DNA of 64,000 bases from Eledone cirrhosa (Eukaryota): contig OZ024743.1 of assembly GCA_964016885.1 (NCBI GenBank), positions 328,042,001 to 328,106,000 of the forward strand, given 5' to 3'. The notes below the pieces were generated by a model that saw only the letters and a program-made list of their open reading frames with translations, had not been told where the DNA came from and ran no database searches. The translations under genes and the position numbers were made by a program. Shown in pieces: positions 2,111-58,540 of this stretch (its first letter is position 1; the number at the start of each line of letters is the position of its first letter).

Positions 2111-2386
2111 CAGTTAGTCTCTACTGCTATTACCAAACAATAATTATTCTTCCAATTTAGAAGAGGAACTTCCCTGAAATTCACCTCAAACTTTGATGAA
2201 ACCAGATTCATCTTTAGTGGACAAATATAAGCCATAAAATCCTTATCTCCATAGAGCAGAAGTTGACAAACTGCAGCTCTTTAGCCTTTCTTGAGAGGCT
2301 CTTAGGTAGTTTGAAATATTTTTATATTTTATATTACAGTTCAAAACACATGACCCAGACATTGAAGTAATTTCAGATAATAGTCA

Positions 2387-2744
2387 ACTCTAAAGAGTCC
2401 CAAATACCCAAATAATAGGGGGTAGGCAGTTGGAATAAGCAGGATGTGTGGAATAAGTGGGAGTGGGGTGGAATAAGCGTGTGCGGGTGGGGGGGGGGGG
2501 TAATTTTTCTAGGTTGTCTGTGTTGATTTTTTAAAAACCAGAATTAGTCATTTACCTTACATATTGAGATCCCCAACACTACCTATTTATTTTATAGTGT
2601 ATGAGATTTCCAGTAATGTACTTTTTAGTGTCTAAAGAAAATTAATTGTCGCAGGAATGCTATCACTTAAAATAAAATTCTGCAATTTAATAAGCGAGGA
2701 GGTTGGAATAAGAGCACAGCGGGGGTATTCAAGACCCGAGAGTA
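2387..2744. mobile_element. MITE family with TACTCTCGGGTC-like termini (probable TA target site, Tc1/mariner type)
   Basis: Ends in gacccgagagta. The internal ttaaaaaaccagaattagtcat and aattgtcgcaggaatgctac blocks recur at ~27968-28260, 32669-32765, 33980-34264 and 53733-53919 (-). Confidence 0.65.
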
Positions 2745-3769
2745 AGTTAATATTTTGTTATATGTATTTTTGTTTATAATAAATTATATAACTCTGATAG
2801 TCTCACCTATTTCTTTTTTTTTTTATAAAACGTTTTGTTTGTTTTTTCATATTGAAAACGTTTCCTAGAACTTCTATAGATCAACGTACAAGGATTTCTT
2901 TGTAGGGAGATTAGAATTAGGATTAGAGGTCGGTTAGGGTTAAGGTGATTCTCTCAAAGTCAGCTTCCATTCAAGTCTCATTAACAATATTAATGCAATG
3001 AAAAGGAATGCTAGTGTACTTAACTCTTAATGTCTTGTACTCATCACTAAAACAGGTTTGTCAATTCAAATGTTTATAGTATATTTACTAGTGAACAGAT
3101 CATTGTAAAAATTTGCAGTAAACTAAAGACTTTTAATATGACACAGACACAGTGCTCTTTTGTACTTTTCAGCACTTAATTTCAGTACTTAATTATGAAT
3201 AAAGTTGATGTAGGATAAAGAAAATTCTTTAGTTATGTTGGAGACAACTTCAGTTTCAGTAGAACAACAAAATTTACCTAGTATTTGTTACAAGGTGGTT
3301 GGTGGTATGAAAGATATCCAGTTTATCGAGTATTTGTTATAAGGTGGTTGGTGGTATGAAAGATATCCAGCTGTAAAAACTATGCCAAAAATAAAAAGGA
3401 AGAAACAGAGGCAATGGTATATGAAAGAGTGACCTTTTAGTTTTGTTGTAACTTCCCTGGTGTAACAGTGGTATCATGTTTTTCTGGTGTTGTGTGTGAG
3501 CCAGATGATAAAGAAATATGACAAATGCTGAAATAAGACTAGTCCAACCCATGCCAACATGGTGAAACAAAACTGAGGTAGAACAATAATGATGACAAAG
3601 ATTAACTTGTATGTCATTGACAAGAAGTGGACAACTGAATTAGATAAGAATGAAAATGCAGTTGATAATTCCTGAAAATATTTATATTTGCACAACTGAC
3701 CAACCAACATGAAAAAATCAGAAAAATCCCTTTAACAATTTTTATTGTTTTCAAATTTTGAAAATCATA

Positions 3770-29231: not shown

Positions 29232-30424
29232 ATAGGGTATTCGGGATAAATTTGATAGTCTAATATTTTTATTTCAGATATACCCTTGTTATCTGTGAAA
29301 AATGAATGGCATTGTGAAACCTAATCACTATAGTTTTAAAGATGCCAAAGTTAACTCAAATGGACAAGTAGAAACCACCTAAATATTGGAAAAGGGTAAC
29401 CTGCATCATGATTTGTGCTATGCATCAAAATTCCACAATCATGACAGCTGCTTAATGATCTTTGAACACTGTGAAAGCTACAAGACGTAAAATGAAGAGC
29501 TGCAATGGAGACTACAAGGCCATGGCTCGTAAGAAAAGAACACGGCAGACGTTCTGATTGCCTCCATACACCAGAATTTATCGAAACACTGCAGGAGAAA
29601 GTGAACACCCAGGCAAGGGAATGCAAAGTTTAGTGTTGCAAATCCACTATAAAGCTGGCCTTGAATAAGGACATCCACTATCACTCATACAAGAGCCATA
29701 AAGGCCAATTTCTGACAGAAAAGGCTCAAGAAAACCGTCTGACAAAGGAAAATATCCTGTTGAACCAGGGACAATCTAGTTCTCCGATGAAAAGAATTTG
29801 TCAGGACCAGGTGCACAACACCCAGAACAACATGGGTTGTCATGAAGACCAAGTTTGCCCAAACTGTAATGGCTTTTGGATGTGTCTCCACTGAGGGTGA
29901 TGTCATGTCATCTCACATCTTTGAACAGGGTTTCAGGCTCAATTCGGCTGACTATGTTAAGCCTTGGTTGGAAAGGGTGGCTTTGGGAAGACTATGTGTG
30001 GGGCAGCAAGATTTAGCTCCCTATTTAGCTCACCTCTGGGAAGACTCAGAAGTAATTGTTACTACACCAGCCCCAACGTTTGGCCCCCTAACTCCTCTGA
30101 TTGCAACCCTATGGATTATTATGTGTAGGGCGCAGTTGAGAAAGACACCAACCATATTGCCTGTAACACCAAGACCCAACTGATCAACAGGATTAAGGAA
30201 GCATTTGAGGCTCTCCCTAGGGACACTGAAGGCCACATGTGTCAGCTTCCAGAGCCAAATCGAAACTATGCTGAATGAGGGTGGCTTCTTTGGATGAATT
30301 TTCTCTTTTGATCGTTTTAATCTTTGCCATTTTCTATTTTTCCAATAAATTTATTTTTGACCGAGTTATTCACTCTTTCTCCCTTAAAAAGAACCCTGTA
30401 AAATTTAGCCTGAACACACATATA
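29232..30424 (+). mobile_element. Decayed Tc1/mariner superfamily element, probably maT (DD37D)
   Basis: FSDEKN (~29780), VMAFGCVSTEG...QQDLAP (ORF 29842) and WPPNSSDCNPMDY (~30080); imperfect TIRs. Confidence 0.75.
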
Positions 30425-30509
30425 CCATCATCATTGTGTTGCATCTGTTTTTCCATGCTTGCATGGGTTGAATGGTATATATATACACACACCCAGAAAT
30501 ATCTGCCCC

Positions 30510-30885
30510 TCAAAACAGTCCTGAGTACCTTTTTGATTTCCATGTGTCTAACACACATGGGCATGCCCACAAAGTCAGAAAACAGCACAGTTCCAATGAC
30601 TTTCGGAAACATTTTTTCACGCTCAGAGTTGCTGAAGCATGGAACAAACTACCTGCATCAGTTGTTAGCTGTCGAGACACTGCATCCTTTAAAACCTCCA
30701 TGCTTCCCAAGATTCGCCAACACTACACCTAATATTCCCCCCTCCATACACACGCACATCATGACTCATACACTATTCACTTCCCTGACATTTGTATATT
30801 ATTCTATGTACTATACATGCACCTTTGACAAGTTGTAGTGCACCTGAGCACTTTACACAATAATTTCATTATTATTATTATTATA
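30510..30885 (+). mobile_element. 3' fragment of the same CR1-group LINE
   Basis: Near-identical to 24600-24978. Further 3' fragments at ~55875-56217 and ~52680-52755. Confidence 0.9.
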
Positions 30886-39961: not shown

Positions 39962-40092
39962 TCATGTTACTTTTGACCACTTGAGGAAGCTGGGTAGATC
40001 CTTTACAGGAACATTATACGTGTGTGCCTTGAGACGTAGGTTACGGTCATCTGTAAGTAGGACCACATCACGATAGATGCGACTAGGTTCCT
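39962..40092 (-). CDS. SMG6: SMG6 last coding exon (PIN C-terminus and stop)
   Basis: Acceptor ttttatag; (E)EPSRIYRDVVLLTDDRNLRLKAHTYNVPVKDLPSFLKWSKVT* closely matches my recollection of the human SMG6 C-terminus (VVLLTDDRNLRVKA...FLTWAQVG). Confidence 0.96.
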
Positions 40093-42738: not shown

Positions 42739-42820
42739 CTTTAGATTTTGGAATGGAATCTTTAGAATTGTCTTTGCAATAATGAAGGCAACATGTAAGA
42801 ATTAAATCATCATTGTTTCC
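42739..42820 (-). CDS. SMG6: SMG6 exon (PIN, GNNDD motif)
   Basis: ttactttcag|GNNDDLILTCCLHYCKDNSKDSIPKSK+G|gtttga; 82 nt, phases 0/1, consistent with neighbours. Not in the ORF track. Confidence 0.95.
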
Positions 42821-44266: not shown

Positions 44267-44478
44267 CTTAGTGTCAGTAGCTTCACTACGGTATAGAATA
44301 GTTTGAAGCATAGTTCCTTTTGTTGTCTGGGCTCTGAGGTGAGGGTTCTTCAGTTCAAATTGTTGCTCCAGAAATGCCATGGCCAGTTTGGCATTTTCTT
44401 TCACCATGTCACTGTGTTCTATAGATTCATAATGACCTTCTAAATTACCACGGACTAAGCCATCCAATTCATTGATTA
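44267..44478 (-). CDS. SMG6: SMG6 exon (PIN, INELDG motif)
   Basis: ttgcag|(V)INELDGLVRG...LYRSEATDTK|gtacga; 212 nt. Confidence 0.95.
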
Positions 44479-44533
44479 CTGCAATTAAAATAAAGATAAC
44501 AGTAATATACGTGAACGACAAAGCATAAATGAA

Positions 44534-45130
44534 TTGAGAGAGAGACTGAGCATAAGAGGAATCAAATGCTGCGTGCAGGAGAGGCGGTTACGATGGTATG
44601 GACATGTGATGCGTATGAAGGATGACAGCTGCATAAAAAGGTGCAGAGCACTAGAAGTTGATGGAAACCGCGGAGTGGGGAGACCCAAGATGACTTGGGA
44701 TGAGGTGATAAAAGCCGACTTTACCCAACTACACCTCTCAAAGTCAATGACACACGACCGTGACCTCTGGCGTCACGCAGTAATACAGGGTACCCGACCT
44801 CCCATGGGTACATGCTGAAGCATATAAACAATATGCCCCCCCCCCCCCCACCACCGCAAGGTGGTCGTGGAGGTGCCACGGCAAAAAAGCACCCAGCCCA
44901 CACTGTAAAGTGGACGTGTAGGCGCCACGAAAAAGCACCCAGCACTCACTGTAAATGAGGTTGGTGTTAGGAAGGGCATCCAGCTGTAGAAATCAAGCCA
45001 GATCAGTTCCTGTATGAGCAAGGCATGGTCAGCCGACCAGACACTGCCCACAACAGGACAACCCGTCTAACCCATGCTAGCGTGGAAGAACGGACGTAAA
45101 ACGGTGATGATGATGATGATGATGATGATA
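44534..45130 (+). mobile_element. RTE LINE 3' fragment joined to SINE-like repeat, 55 bp from the SMG6 acceptor
   Basis: ORF 44534-44818 contains ERRLRWYGHVMRM...GVGRPKMTW; the element ends in a (GAT)n tail. Confidence 0.8.
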
Positions 45131-46178: not shown

Positions 46179-46329
46179 CAATTAGAGGAACTGAGATGGT
46201 ATAACTCTCACTAAATATTAGTTTCTTTACTCCCTGCAGATGATCAATGAAACAGTTTGTGTCTGGTATAAGATAGACTGGGTGAATTTCAATCTCAACA
46301 CAACAGTTTCTTTGTTTTCGTAACAGAGC
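46179..46329 (-). CDS. SMG6: SMG6 exon (start of PIN, PDTN motif)
   Basis: tttcag|ALLRKQRNCCVEIEIHPVYLIPDTNCFIDHL...ISVPLI+G|gtgagt; 151 nt. Confidence 0.96.
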
Positions 46330-48586
46330 CTGAAATAATTTGAATAAATACAACAAAATTACAATGTTAAAGGAATACAATAAAGATTGCTTGAAACAGG
46401 AAAGTTTTAAAAATTGAAAATTCAAGATTAGCTTCAATGGTTTTGGTGTCACGACAAAAATCACCCAGTCCACACTATAAAGTGGTTGTGTAGGTGCCAC
46501 CATAAAAAGTGCTCAGTCCAAGCTGTAAAGAGGTTGTATAGGTGTCACAACATAAAGCACCCAGTACACACTGTAAATGTGGTTGATGCTAGGAAGGGCA
46601 TCCAGCTGTAGAAACCAGGCCAAAATCAGTTCTGTATGACCTGGCTTGTCTCACAATGGGACAACTCGTCTAACCCATGCTCGAGTGGAAAATAGGACGT
46701 TAAACTATGATGATGATAATGATGAAATGAGTTTGAAACTCTATTTAAAGATGTGAGAGTTTCTTTTCTTTAGTTGCAGCTTCAGTAAATATTAACTGTT
46801 CAATATAAAATCATCTTCATTTAACTTCATTTAAAAAGGGTTAGATGACTTGCCACAGATCAAGTCAGTATTTAATCAAAGTTATTGATCTTCCAGATTG
46901 ACTGAGAGTCTGCATCATCATATGTCTGCTTTTCCCTGCTTGCAAGGGTGGGATGGGTCCTAGTCAGTACAGCATCTCTCCATTCATCACAGTCCTTCGT
47001 CATGTCGTCCATGAGCTTCAGCGATCTGAGGTCAGCTCTCACCACTTCCGCCCATGATTTTCGTGGTCTTCCTCTACTGCATCTTCCTTCTACAGGGATT
47101 TCTTGGCACTTCTTTCCCCATATTTACATATATTCCTGCATTCTACTGAGTGCAATGAACAAATTTTATCATAGCACCAACAACACTAGGGAGGTTGTCA
47201 TGCCATTTACACAACTAGTGTCCTCTCAACCTTTAGGCAAGATTTCTACTGCCAGATATTCTTCCTATAACCAACCATTTTACAGAATATACTGGGTGTA
47301 CTCTATCATGTCACCAACACTAAAGAGTTGTTTGTGCTGTTGATAACTCAAGAATCTGATCCACCCATTTTTGTCCTGGTTTCTATAGCTAGATGCCCTT
47401 CATATCACCAACTAGCTTGTGGAGGTTATACTAAGTGCATTTTTTTGTGGCACCAGCACCAAAGAAATTGTAACATGAGTGAAGAGTCCATCCATTAAAC
47501 TCTTTTTTGACATAGTTTCTTCATTAGTTTCTTCTGGTTTTGTTGAAATCTACATACATTTACCAATCCTGGAACAACAGATGTAAAAAAATTGTGAAAA
47601 TGACATGCAACCTTTTTGATATCAAACTGCCTGAATCTGCCCCTGGTTCTAAGATACAAAAATATCAATTAACTGCCCAGGACAGTGGACTAGTAGAATT
47701 GTTAGAGTGTCATATGAGATGCCTTGCAGTATTTGCTCTGGCTCTTTGCATTCTGAGTTCCTATATTGCTGTGGCCTACCTAGGTGGCAGACTTAATCCA
47801 TTACCCAGCCCTTGGATGCTTTTAGCAGAGTTCACACTGTTGCAAGCAATTAGAGCAGGCTTCTGGTTGCAGGATATGTTCATCTCCCCCACCCTCTCAC
47901 TATTCTTGGAAGCCCTGAAAAATGTCGGAGCACTGACCCTCACTCCCACTGTCTTGGAGGTCTTGAAAAGGGTCATGAGCACTGACCCTCTCTCCCACCA
48001 GTCTTGGAGGTGTTGAAACATGTCATGAATACTAACCCACTCTCCCACTAATTTTGAAGGTCTTGAAAAGGGTGGTGAGTACTGACCCTTCCCTTCTTGT
48101 TCACAAAACAGTACAAAAACAACAACAAAAAACACCCACCTACACATGTCTTAAATAGAAAGCAAAGTTGTTAGTAAGAAAATTAGTTAAATATTTACAC
48201 TGCTTAACATTCAATGAAGATTATGTATTAGTCACAAGATAGTCATCAATTGGAAACTAGTTAAAGATTAATGGTTAACATTCAATTAACATTAGTTTAA
48301 AGTGCAACTTGAAAGCAAATATTAATACAAAAGACAACAAATACAGCAGTCCAAATTTATTGGCTGTGATAATGTAGCATATATATATATATATACACAC
48401 ACTGTACTTTATTTGTGTATAATACTAATTTATAATGTGGATAATGAAATCTCCCCCCAAAATCATTTCCATGTATAATATGAACTGACATTATGATACA
48501 TGGTAACAAAAGGAGTGTTTTGTCAGATTTTTTATAATTCCTGCATAAAATACATTGAAAAATGTATTTTAACTACTACAACTATA

Positions 48587-50639: not shown

Positions 50640-51342
50640 CAGTCCCGTATGAGCAAAGTTCAGTGCGGCCAACTGACCAGACCCTCCCCGTAACAGAAAC
50701 ACACAGCTCCACACTGTGCACGTGATTGTTGTAAGGAAGGCCATAAAAACCAAACCATGATACTGTCCTGCTGTGAGCAAGGTTCAACATGGCCAACTGG
50801 TCAGACAGCTCTCAAAACGGGACCACCCAGTTCCACACCATAAATGTGGTTGGTGTTAGGAAGGGCATCCAGCTGTAAAAAACAAATGGCTAAAATGCAG
50901 TTCCATTTGAGTAAGGTACAGCGCAGCCAACCGACCAGACTTGCCTCATAGCATGGACGATCCGTCTGACCCATGCAAGAATGGAAAATAAGACATTAAA
51001 CAGTGATGATAGCAAAAAATAGCTGGTTAGCTTTAACTAAGACTTCCTGTAAGTATCAATATTTTGACAAACACTCTACAATCATGAAAGATGGGAGGGT
51101 GGTTATGGTAGTTAAGTTTTAAGCTCATCAGAAACAGAGACAAAACAAAAGCTATGGGAAATGTTCATTATTAGAGGAAGATTAGTTTTCTTTCCGATGA
51201 AATCACATCTGAAGTCATCAAGAGAGGAGGAGAACCGTAGTTTATCCCCCCCCCCCCCCAAAAAAAAAAACAAATAAGGAAACTGAGTTAGCAGACATTT
51301 TAATCTGAATAAAAACAAAACAAAACAAAATTGTTTACTGAC

Positions 51343-51414
51343 TTGGATGTTCTGCTTACGGCTGGCCTGTTGATCAACTTGCTGTTGAAGCTCATCTCTC
51401 TTGGCTCTCAACAT
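51343..51414 (-). CDS. SMG6: Putative alternative SMG6 exon, duplicate of the coiled-coil part of exon 55721-55849
   Basis: tttccaaag|MLRAKRDELQQQVDQQASRKQNIQ|gtcagt; 72 nt, phase 0-0; 12/24 residues identical to the upstream exon. Confidence 0.75.
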
Positions 51415-52933
51415 CTTTGGAAATTACGATGGAGCAGATATGATAAGTGTGCAGATAAGACAAACAATTACAAAAACAAAACAAAGCATGCAAGCAAACA
51501 ACATGCAGTTTAAGGTTTCATAAGCAACACAAATTATATTTACAAGTGGTCCACTGATTTACTTCCAGGTGCAAAAAAAACAAAGAATAAAAAAAAAAAA
51601 CACACAAATTCATTTTATTTGCAAGATGCCAGTGATTAAGGGCACCACATATATAAAATATATGGTTTCCATTTTATTGTTGAGCAGGCATTTCAGTGTA
51701 ATGAAAGTTGAGGTTTCTTCACATCTTCATGAAGAGTGAGTTTAGTATAAACTTCATGTTATCTCAAGATGGTACATGGGAGAGGGAGGGGGAAGGGTGA
51801 GAATGAGAATCTTAACAAAGGGAAAAGGGGAAGGAGTGACAATGGAAATCTCAACTAAAAGCTAACAAGTCTTGTCTCTACAATAGACACAGGATTTCAA
51901 GTGGTACAACTAAAGTAAAACATATATAAAGCATGAAAGAGGTGACCTGGCCTATTCACTACCCCCTACCACCACTGACTCTTCCACTATCACCCTTACT
52001 GAACACCCCCTATGAGTGACAGCAGCTTCAACAATGATAATCAAACAGTGAAAATATATTATTTGTAATCAAGCAACAGAAATGGAAGTTAGATCACAGT
52101 TCATGTTTCTTATTAAGATTGATTTTAACTTTTTGTATATTTAACATTGTTAGACTATACATGTTAGGTAACAGTTAATGTCTTCCACTATATAGATGTA
52201 TATGGCATATCTCTAGCAGAAACATTCTTGAAGGAGTTACTATGTTGTTAAAAGTGTCACTGTCTCAAGCCAGGACGCTCATCAAGCTGGTGCTTATCCT
52301 GGTTTTGTGGCATGAAGTCTCCCCTCTGGATAGGACACCAGTCCATCACAGGGTTAAACCCCAAGCTTCTGCTGGTACTCATTTCCAGCTGAGTATACTG
52401 GAGCAACATGAAATGAAGTGTTTTGTTCGAGAACAACCCAGCCCAGGAATCAAACAAGCAGTATTATGATTGTAAGCCCAACACCCTTACAACTAGGCCA
52501 CACGCCTTGCTAAAGCTTAAGTAAATTTATTTCACATGCCTCCACCATAAATAAAAATCAAGAGTCAGTTCACCTCATAGTCCCAATGGACTATGATTGA
52601 TTTTAACTTTCTATATCTTCAACATTTATGAACTATAAATGCTATGGGTTAGCAAAGATTTAATTGACGTTTGTACATTACCCTATGTACACTTTTTGAT
52701 GAGTTGTAGTGCACCTAAGCACGGTACACAATATTTTCATCATTATTATTATTATCATATATTTCTAAATAAAAATATAGATACGTAACATATCTTTAAC
52801 AAAACACTGCCACTGCACTCACTATTTAACTATTATGTGTGAACTCTGAACATCGAGATGCAGCTTCATTACTGCAACCTTATTAATTCATTGAGTGAGT
52901 CATGGCTGGAGATCAATGAAATAACATCAGTGA

Positions 52934-55428: not shown

Positions 55429-55720
55429 GTTATAAAGAGAAACTATGGTGATACAATATTTAATTTGGCAAGAGAAGAGATCTATAGACAACAGGTAGAG
55501 AGCAACAACAGCAAATAGAACATTCCACCAATGTGGGACCATGTCAATCATGCAAGAGAAGGGAAGTGAGAAAGTGAAGGTGAGGGGAGGAGTAATGGAG
55601 AGAGAGAGATAAAGAGATAGATAGATAGATAGAGAGAGATAGATAGAGAGAGAGAGGCAGAGAGAGAGACAAGAAAGAGAAGGTTGGAGAGTTTATACTA
55701 TATCTCTCAATAATACATAC

Positions 55721-55849
55721 TTGGATATTCTGTTGGTGACGACTTTGTTTTTCAACTCTTTTCTTCAATTCTTCCTTCTTTGCTTTCAACATCTTCATCT
55801 CTTCACCATCAGTAAGGTCATCCTCTTCAGTCTCCATTACAGCTTCATC
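55721..55849 (-). CDS. SMG6: SMG6 exon (acidic linker and coiled coil)
   Basis: tttctag|DEAVMETEEDDLTDGEEMKMLKAKKEELKKRVEKQSRHQQNIQ|gtatgt; 129 nt, phase 0-0. Confidence 0.92.
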
Positions 55850-56399
55850 CTAGAAACAACAGAAATACCATTCAATAACCAAGAAACCCTGAACACGTTT
55901 TTGAACTCCATGTGTCTAACACCCGAGAACATGCTTACAAAATCAGAAAACAGTACAGCTCCCATGACTTTTGGAAACATTTTTTCACGCTTAGAGTTGT
56001 TGAAGTATGGAAAAAAATACCTGCATCAGTTGTTAGCTGCCGGGACACTGTATCATTCAAAACTTCCAAGCTTCCTGAGATTCGCCAACACTACACTTGA
56101 TATCCCCCCTGCTCCTCACACTGTACATTATTCTATGTACTATACATGTACCTTTGATGAATTGTAGTGCACCTGAGCACTGTAGACAATAATTTTCATT
56201 ATTATTATTATTATTATGAATAAGTGATTATGTAGAAATCACACCAAAAAATGGAATATAATATTAACAAAATGTGGTACTCCGAACTGCCTCACTCTGG
56301 ACAACCAATCCAATTCATGCCAGCATAGAAAACTGATGATGATGATGGTGGTGACGATAATGGTGGTGATAGTGGTAATTAATTGATTCCACTAAAGCA

Positions 56400-56789: not shown

Positions 56790-56972
56790 CTCAGAAGTAA
56801 CATATTGTTCAATATTCATTTCCAACTCTGCTTCATCTATTAACAAAGTGGGTTCTGTGGACGAGTAACGTTTAGTTTCCACATCAAATGACAACATTGG
56901 GGTTTCAATACCACATAAATAATCCCCAAAATTCTTCAGACTTTGAATGCGAAGGCTATCTCGAGCTATGTC
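56790..56972 (-). CDS. SMG6: SMG6 exon
   Basis: tttttcag|DIARDSLRIQSLKNFGDYLCGIETPMLSF...EQYVTSE|gtgagt; 183 nt; resembles human ADCKRVTVLKYFLEALCGQEEPLLAF (from memory). Confidence 0.93.
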
Positions 56973-57636: not shown

Positions 57637-57740
57637 CTTGTCATCAATAAAATGAACATAGGTGGGGTTGAATGGAGCACTCAATAGGGGTACAAAGCCA
57701 CACAACATAGTATCTTCACTCAGAATCACCGGTTCACAAT
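57637..57740 (-). CDS. SMG6: SMG6 exon
   Basis: ttttttag|(N)CEPVILSEDTMLCGFVPLLSAPFNPTYVHFIDDK|gtaagt; 104 nt; conserved L.ED..L.GFVPLL motif of the EST1 family. Confidence 0.95.
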
Positions 57741-58540
57741 CTAAAAAAAAACGAGACACAAATTAAACAAGTAAATAGTATATGTCAGGTTATTAACGAA
57801 ATTGCCATGTTCTTGTTCCCTCCACCACCACCACCACCACCACCACATCCTCACTCACTGTTATCGGAGAGGAGTTGGCTAACCTGCAAGAGCGAGCCCT
57901 GCAAGATGGAGTGGCTGTTCCAGCACATCTCCATCAGCATCTTCTGGGTCAATGTCTTCTCTATCCTGTTAGCCAAGACTACAAGATGGACTAACCCTTC
58001 AGTTTCATTTATGGTGAAGGCACGTGGAATGGATTTGCTTCCAATTTATTAGTTGTTTATTATTTCACAGTGTGTTTACACATGATTAGTAAAAATGTGC
58101 TCTAATCTTATTAAATTAGTTCTATATTTCATCTGCCCATCATCCACCTCATGGATTATCTCTGTGCTGATCACTGGTCACTATCCTCTGAGGCATTTTG
58201 GCCGATTGCTGTCATTGACAGCATATGGCTGTTTTAACAGTTGTTCTAGTGATGAGATTTCTCATTTTTAAATGAATTAATATATGTATATTTTATATAT
58301 ATCTATATATATGTTGTGTTGGTGACAAGACAAAAAGCACCCAGTTCACACTGTAAATATGGTTGGTGTTAGGAACAGTATCGAGCCATAGAAACAGCTC
58401 TGTATAAGCAAGACATGATCACCTGATCTAACTTGTCTCACAACTTCAGAACAACTTGTCTAACACATGCTAGCATGGATGTTAAATGATGGTGACATAT
58501 AAATATATTTGTAAAATATTTGAGCCTCGAGTGAGTTGAA

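What the first reader, a model, noticed from the sequence alone, without database searches (positions are those of the whole stretch)
51343..51414. Anciently duplicated in-frame SMG6 exon: candidate alternative coiled coil next to the PIN nuclease
MLRAKRDELQQQVDQQASRKQNIQ parallels MLKAKKEELKKRVEKQSRHQQNIQ (55721-55792): 12/24 identical, with several conservative changes. Five identical residues use different codons (gca/gcc, gaa/gag, ttg/ctt, caa/cag, aat/aac), which indicates purifying selection. Both end at the same phase-0 donor, and the acceptor AAG aligns with the Lys codon of the parent exon. An in-frame TAA four codons upstream fixes the start. Inclusion would double the coil; mutually exclusive use would drop the acidic linker and replace the basic KKR cluster with QQQ. 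I recall only one such segment in human SMG6.
Basis: partly seen in the sequence, partly recalled or inferred. Interest (0 to 1): 0.82.

Follow-up and report, generated by a model that had tools for sequence, protein, structure and literature searches.

The report
Optional second helix in cephalopod SMG6
Octopus and cuttlefish carry a duplicated 72-base exon, present in some gene models and absent from others, in the gene for the mRNA-destroying enzyme SMG6; it adds a second copy of the helix predicted to touch the activating partner SMG5, so it likely lets these animals tune mRNA quality control by splicing.

Summary
Window 51343-51414 (minus strand) is an in-frame 72-nt copy of the last 72 nt of the SMG6 exon at 55721-55849: 12 of 24 residues identical, synonymous sites saturated, pN 0.24. 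It is already in NCBI predicted proteins. Of 9 coleoid models covering the region, 5 include it after the parent exon (two Octopus species and a cuttlefish), 4 skip it, and none uses it instead of the parent. So it behaves as a cassette, not a mutually exclusive exon. The cassette copies form one clade (bootstrap 98), so the duplication predates the octopus-squid split. None of 249 other SMG6-like proteins shows it. The duplicated stretch is the helix before the PIN nuclease that 2026 papers predict contacts SMG5. Both copies keep the three tested contact residues, and inclusion puts the new, less basic copy in that position. Two Rbfox-type motifs and a 137-nt AG-free zone precede it. No junction reads were examined, and the effect on SMG5 binding is inferred. 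New variant of a known kind; none found in the papers searched.

The parts
51343..51414 (-). 72-nt phase 0-0 cassette exon, second copy of the pre-PIN helix of SMG6
   Evidence: identical peptide in O. sinensis isoforms X1 and X3, absent from X2
51415..51417 (-). AAG acceptor, in the place of the Lys codon of the parent exon; the only acceptor of 8 checked with A at -3
51337..51342 (-). GTCAGT donor of the cassette
51424..51426 (-). in-frame TAA that limits how far upstream the exon can start
51417..51553 (-). 137-nt zone without AG before the acceptor (26-69 nt at the 7 other acceptors checked)
51502..51507 (-). TGCATG (Rbfox-type motif), 93 nt before the exon
   Evidence: motif from PMC8742874 passages
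51487..51492 (-). second TGCATG, 78 nt before the exon
55721..55849 (-). parent exon: acidic linker plus first copy of the helix (the duplicated part is 55721-55792)
   Evidence: present in 9 of 9 coleoid models
56790..56972 (-). SMG6 exon upstream of the parent exon
46179..46329 (-). first PIN exon; end of the helix and the first catalytic Asp (PDTN)
44267..44478 (-). second PIN exon
42739..42820 (-). third PIN exon (lower boundary read from the sequence)
39962..40092 (-). last coding exon of SMG6

Best explanation
This is a 72-nt partial duplicate of the SMG6 pre-PIN helix exon, shared by octopus and cuttlefish, that gene models include after the parent exon or skip, and that likely swaps the helix surface predicted to contact SMG5 and so would tune activation of the nuclease. 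Shown: homology, selection, frame, single origin before the octopus-cuttlefish split, and both forms in public gene models of two Octopus species. Predicted: one continuous helix of about 57 residues in place of about 34. Follows from spacing: with the exon included, the new copy's Leu2 lies 45 residues before the first catalytic Asp, as the parent copy's does when the exon is skipped, so the new copy takes the PIN-proximal place and the more basic parent copy moves 24 residues (about 36 angstrom of helix) outward. Inferred from human work: this place carries the L1205/K1208/L1212 contact with the SMG5 helix. Inferred: the long form binds SMG5 with a different strength or exposes a spare basic helix, and inclusion is tissue-regulated by Rbfox-type repression at a weak AAG acceptor. 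The exon being real and alternative is about 0.9 likely; the SMG5-tuning role about 0.5.
For: Selection: pS 1.05, pN 0.24; 24 of 24 residues match O. sinensis while the six other exons compared match at 86-98%. Models: O. sinensis X1 and X3 include, X2 skips; O. bimaculoides P0007 and P0008 include, P0005 skips; cuttlefish P0129 includes. Single origin: cassette clade bootstrap 98; independent duplications rejected, AU p = 0.008, on 24 columns and 14 sequences; five positions (6, 10, 15, 19, 20) separate all three cassette copies from all three parent copies. Lineage limit: 5 of 258 proteins tested show a 24-residue tandem helix, all coleoid. Mapping: in a 1419-residue mammalian SMG6 the unit's Leu is residue 1205 and the PDTN Asp is 1251, matching the numbering of PMC12923823, where L1205A/K1208D/L1212D moderately impairs NMD rescue and weakly reduces SMG5-stimulated cleavage (section 9). 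L2, K5 and L9 are identical in 3 of 3 parent and 3 of 3 cassette copies. Folds: helix 326-382 with the exon, 731-764 in a single-copy relative. Splicing marks: AG-free zone 137 nt against 26-69; two TGCATG within 100 nt, which 0.34% of 100-nt windows show.
Against: No junction reads were examined (one search gave no result), so inclusion in this species, its level and its tissue pattern are not shown; the evidence for splicing is automated gene models. Only one decapodiform sequence was found, and no Nautilus. The human I1 mutant effect is moderate in cells and weak in vitro, and the contact itself is an AlphaFold prediction. Because the cassette keeps L2, K5 and L9, SMG5 binding may be unchanged. 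The charge drop is small in cuttlefish (+4 to +3). The octopus SMG5 helix was not found in 470 kb fetched, so no complex was modelled. Confidence of the helix model is moderate (pLDDT blocks 56-78). The motif count was made after seeing the motifs, and their conservation is untested; in humans about half of long AG-free zones may be chance.
Confidence: 0.55

Rival explanations
1. The exon is real and alternative but works only as a tolerated spacer: it lengthens the linker between the TPR-like region and the PIN, keeps the SMG5 contact unchanged, and is conserved because any helix in that place must keep the contact residues.
For: L2, K5, L9, V13, N22, I23 and Q24 are the same in all six coleoid copies compared; a disordered acidic stretch precedes the helix (pLDDT under 50 at 292-323) and could absorb the extra length; human I1 and I2 mutants are the mildest interface mutants.
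Against: A neutral optional exon would be expected to decay; this one kept its length and frame over the 285-340 million years given for the split (PMC10925132 passage). Its own diagnostic residues (R6, Q10, Q15, R19) are kept in octopus and cuttlefish, and it is more conserved than the six other exons compared.
Confidence: 0.2
2. Inclusion matters through a partner other than SMG5: the displaced basic parent helix, or the doubled helix, binds RNA, UPF1 or a telomere factor.
For: In the long form the parent copy (net +5) lies 24 residues further from the PIN; sources name the protein telomerase-binding EST1A; helix extension is a large change in shape.
Against: No call tested any such partner; the only role found in print for this helix is the SMG5 contact.
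Confidence: 0.13
3. The two copies are used as mutually exclusive exons (56790 joined to 51414), dropping the acidic linker.
For: Frames are compatible, all phase 0; duplicated exons are often mutually exclusive (PMC8373072 abstract and passages); long AG-free zones go with cassette and mutually exclusive exons.
Against: 0 of 9 coleoid models show it and 5 co-include both copies; the intron between them is 4.3 kb, so there is no steric bar; the parent exon has an ordinary TAG acceptor and GTATGT donor.
Confidence: 0.07
4. It is a dead duplicate picked up by gene predictors through its likeness to the neighbouring exon.
For: Weak AAG acceptor; the newer O. bimaculoides model omits it; no reads were seen here.
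Against: Saturated synonymous sites with low pN; 24 of 24 residues kept against O. sinensis and 16 of 24 against cuttlefish without indels or stops; paired X1/X2 models that differ by exactly these 24 residues, which by my own knowledge of NCBI's pipeline usually rest on transcript alignments.
Confidence: 0.05

Closest known systems
SMG6/EST1A pre-PIN helix ('H' or alpha-1) of the composite SMG5-SMG6 PIN nuclease (PMC12923823; bioRxiv 10.64898/2025.12.27.695470; PMC13182599)
   Same: Same segment, same spacing to the first catalytic Asp (45 residues against 46 in mammals), same Leu, Lys, Leu contact positions.
   Different: Single and constitutive in the mammalian and other proteins tested; here doubled by an optional exon, with a less basic second copy.
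NCBI predicted isoforms of Octopus sinensis EST1A-like (XP_036360055.1 X1, XP_029637408.2 X3 against XP_036360056.1 X2) and cuttlefish CAE1322979.1
   Same: They already contain this exon; the O. sinensis peptide is identical to the window's.
   Different: Automated models only; their names say nothing of a duplication, and the searches found no paper on it.
Tandem exon duplication-derived substitutions (PMC8373072; Dscam1, SCN2A, SLC12A1 types)
   Same: An old homologous exon pair in one gene, kept under selection.
   Different: Only the 3' part of the exon is copied, the acceptor sits at a former Lys codon, and the copy is added to the parent, not exchanged for it; the exchange happens only in effect, at the place next to the PIN.
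Exons with long AG exclusion zones and Rbfox-regulated cassette exons (PMC1431707; PMC8742874)
   Same: AG-free zone over 100 nt and two UGCAUG motifs upstream.
   Different: Branch point, binding and tissue pattern are untested here.

Membership tests
SMG6/EST1A | EST1 (PF10374) + EST1_DNA_bind (PF10373) + C-terminal PIN (PF13638) | tested here: met
   Closest proteins carry all three; window exons match them in order; PF10373 exons lie just upstream of the window; solved human EST1A PIN and TPR chains are the only 4 PDB matches of P0129.
SMG6/EST1A | Catalytic acidic residues of the PIN | tested here: met
   The PDTN Asp maps to D1251; the NNDD and LLTDD motifs are in the later exons; their match to D1353 and D1392 is by my recall of the motifs.
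Tandem exon duplication | Homologous copy next to its parent exon in the same gene and frame | tested here: met
Tandem exon duplication | Whole exon copied with both splice sites | tested here: not met
   72 of 129 nt; no detectable likeness upstream (96 of 300 random places score as well); original extent cannot be recovered.
Mutually exclusive duplicated exons | Copies are not included together; one replaces the other | tested here: not met
   5 of 9 coleoid models co-include, 0 of 9 replace; gene models only, no reads.
Alternative cassette exon | Inclusion and skipping forms of one gene | tested here: met
   Both forms among models of O. sinensis and of O. bimaculoides.
Alternative cassette exon | Junction reads for both forms in this species | tested here: inconclusive
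Rbfox-regulated exon | UGCAUG motifs near the exon | tested here: met
   Two at -93 and -78; none within 120 nt upstream of 8 other exons.
Rbfox-regulated exon | Motif conservation, binding and response to Rbfox loss | not testable with these tools
   DNA of relatives could not be fetched; needs experiments.
SMG5-contacting helix | Residues equal to human L1205, K1208, L1212 at the right distance from the PIN | tested here: met
   with PMC12923823 section 9
SMG5-contacting helix | Binding to cephalopod SMG5 | not tested
   The SMG5 helix and PIN exons were not found in 47 stretches fetched; no complex job was sent.

The most novel reading that the evidence does not exclude
Coleoid cephalopods evolved, about 300 million years ago, a splicing switch on the core nuclease of nonsense-mediated decay: an Rbfox-controlled exon replaces the SMG5-docking helix of SMG6 and so sets NMD strength by tissue, for example differently in neurons and muscle. 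It would be a natural, regulated variant of the SMG5-SMG6 licensing interface described only in 2026.
Probability: 0.25. Interest if true: 0.8.

Novelty: new variant of a known kind. Interest (0 to 1): 0.52.

Why it matters
The SMG5-SMG6 composite nuclease was described in 2026, and the helix before the SMG6 PIN is one of its supporting contacts. An optional second copy of exactly that helix, kept across octopus and cuttlefish, is a ready-made natural experiment: long and short forms can be compared in the published cleavage and rescue assays. If they differ, NMD strength can be set by splicing of the nuclease itself, in the animals with the largest invertebrate nervous systems. If they do not, it remains a clear case of a partial exon copy whose acceptor sits at a former Lys codon.

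Tried and rejected
RNA runs (121 bases, 11 sampled words): 24 rows from 10 studies; 20 rows hold under 5 words and are no evidence unlaid. Search for the SMG5 helix exon, to model the complex and to look for a matching duplication: SMG5-like exons were found on contig C6, but not the helix or PIN exons, in 47 stretches of 10 kb (motif scans on the plus strand, profile scans on both; the minus-strand motif scan did not run because the script stopped early). The PF13638 genome search found only SMG6 and a DIS3-like exon. No complex-prediction job was sent. Remnants of a longer duplication: none above chance. A longer start for the exon: blocked by TAA and the lack of another AG for 137 nt. The DUF1079 match of the cassette (E 0.15, below cut-off) is rejected as noise. 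P0174 (score 46 in the tandem test) is an Asn/Ser-rich run, not a helix copy. Earlier scan findings: none. Two paper look-ups by id found nothing held.

Full report
Observation. On the minus strand, 51343-51414 reads MLRAKRDELQQQVDQQASRKQNIQ and 55721-55792 reads MLKAKKEELKKRVEKQSRHQQNIQ: 12 of 24 residues and 45 of 72 bases identical, with five synonymous codon changes. Identity by codon position is 16, 19 and 10 of 24; synonymous sites are saturated (pS 1.05) and pN is 0.24. Among 127,852 six-frame 24-mers of the window the candidate scores 69 and the next best 28; the 3.0-Gb genome gives only these two matches. The donor is GTCAGT, the acceptor AAG sits where the parent has a Lys codon, and a TAA closes the frame four codons upstream. 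No likeness extends beyond the 72 bases.

The gene. The parent exon finds O. sinensis and Argonauta EST1A/SMG6. Eight window exons between 59221 and 39962, plus the cassette, match the last 390 residues of O. sinensis X1 in order. The host is an octopod: the seven exons compared are 86-100% identical to O. sinensis.

Already annotated, as a cassette. O. sinensis X1 (1548 aa) and X2 (1524 aa) differ by this 24-mer, which is identical to the window's; X3 also includes it. Two O. bimaculoides models include it (23 of 24) and a newer one skips it. The O. vulgaris and Argonauta models skip it. The cuttlefish Acanthosepion pharaonis includes it at 16 of 24. In all, of 9 coleoid models covering the region, 5 have parent then cassette, 4 have the parent only, and none has the cassette only; three further coleoid-like fragments (P0009, P0010, P0229) do not cover it. 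These are automated models. No junction reads were examined here, so splicing in this species is inferred.

Age and range. A self-similarity scan of the 110 residues before the PIN motif tested 258 of 295 stored proteins (37 lacked the motif or enough upstream sequence). Five show a tandem helix at offset 24 (scores 48-66), all coleoid; the next scores are 46 (a low-complexity run) and 35. The other 253 are the 4 skipping coleoid models and 249 proteins of bivalves, gastropods, nemerteans, annelids, echinoderms, vertebrates (many near-redundant mammals) and unnamed sources. A tree of 14 units over 24 columns (6 coleoid copies; copies identical to the window's left out; 8 of 31 outgroup units used) groups the cassette copies at bootstrap 98 and all coleoid copies at 81; separate duplications in octopus and cuttlefish are rejected at AU p = 0.008. 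So few columns make this modest evidence, but five positions separate all cassette from all parent copies. The octopus-decapodiform split is given as 285-340 million years (PMC10925132, passages). Nautilus was not found, so the upper age is open.

What the segment is. [quoted passage not shown] In PMC12923823 (passages and section 9) the model is stabilised by two helices preceding the PINs; SMG6 L1205A/K1208D/L1212D targets this predicted coiled coil, moderately impairs NMD rescue and weakly reduces SMG5-stimulated cleavage. The bioRxiv study 10.64898/2025.12.27.695470 (passages) also names these helices as auxiliary contacts. Supplements of these papers were not seen; their alignments do not list molluscs in the legend read. 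In a stored 1419-residue mammalian SMG6 the unit's Leu is residue 1205 and the PDTN Asp 1251, so L2, K5 and L9 of the 24-mer are those three residues. All six coleoid copies compared keep them, and L2 and L9 are found in 31 of 31 outgroup units, which were anchored on them.

How it likely works. L2 lies 45 residues before the catalytic Asp for the parent copy in the short form (P0001) and for the cassette copy in the long forms (P0003, P0129). AlphaFold2 gives one unbroken helix of 57 residues in the cuttlefish long form (326-382, pLDDT blocks 56-78) and 34 residues in a single-copy relative (731-764), each preceded by a disordered acidic stretch. Inclusion therefore does two things: the new copy takes the place next to the PIN, and the parent copy moves about 36 angstrom outward. 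The contact face is kept, while other positions change (K10Q, K15Q, H19R, Q20K; net +5 to +2 here, +4 to +3 in cuttlefish). My reading is that this alters how well SMG5 docks, or leaves a spare basic helix, and so tunes the nuclease. That step is inference: the octopus SMG5 helix was not found and no complex was modelled.

Signs of regulation. The acceptor is the only one of 8 with A at -3, and its AG-free zone is 137 nt against 26-69. In humans such zones of 100 nt or more are rare (about 0.6%) and enriched for cassette exons (68 of 235 against 47 expected), though about half may be chance (PMC1431707, passages). Two TGCATG lie at -93 and -78; the window has 22 such sites on this strand, 0.34% of 100-nt windows hold two, and none lies within 120 nt upstream of 8 other exons (a few of those boundaries were off by some bases). 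UGCAUG is the Rbfox site in vertebrates and flies, with position-dependent effect (PMC8742874, passages); that upstream sites usually repress is my recall. The test was made after the motifs were seen, and their conservation is unknown.

In print. Searches for SMG6 + alternative splicing + octopus, cephalopod + nonsense-mediated + SMG6, SMG6 + isoform + cassette exon + PIN domain and cephalopod + alternative splicing + exon duplication gave 0 papers each. Searches listed 5, 3 and 8 papers, seen as listings only, none about this exon by title or abstract start. SMG6 does not occur in the main text of the human tandem-exon catalogue PMC8373072 (abstract and passages) or of the Sepia officinalis genome paper PMC13218726 (passages). 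10.1101/2023.05.16.540928 was read in passages for dates only. Most subscription journals are outside the library.

Verdict. A real, selected, coleoid-specific partial exon duplicate, already in automated annotation as an optional exon, that doubles the helix predicted to dock SMG5. New variant of a known kind; interest 0.52, lowered from 0.82 because the exon is annotated, duplicated optional exons are a known class, and the functional step is untested.

Noticed in passing
L009:1568-1653, L012:8978-9169, L016:5054-5226, L026:1890-2153 (G000 contig C6, plus strand): SMG5-like exons (family assigned from recalled motifs and a PF10373 match) spread over about 150 kb; the expected helix and PIN exons were not found in the following 320 kb, and assembly gaps lie in L023 and L050.
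   Followed up: partly
L006:1483-1662 and 2285-3274 (G000 contig C20): SMG7-like exons (assignment recalled); a short open frame recurs three times at about 297-nt spacing (2552, 2849, 3146), a local tandem repeat or assembly artefact.
   Followed up: no
L004:1438-1797 (G000 contig C2): Second PF13638 match in the genome; looks like the PIN of DIS3 (name recalled).
   Followed up: no
P0129 residues about 243-248: The cuttlefish model lacks about 43 residues present in Octopus (the exon at window 57637-57741 and the end of the one before it); model error or another skipped exon.
   Followed up: no
P0150: An unnamed bivalve-like SMG6 fragment lacks the acidic stretch and first half of the pre-PIN helix; model error or a shortened form of the same helix.
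   Followed up: no
window 30370-30840 and 55643-56167: Two copies of the same interspersed repeat, one just upstream of the parent exon; LINE-like reverse-transcriptase fragments at 44489-44818 and 46872-47123.
   Followed up: no
window 51276-51285 (minus strand): CTAAC motif about 60 nt downstream of the cassette donor, resembling a branch-point or QKI half-site (motif recalled).
   Followed up: no
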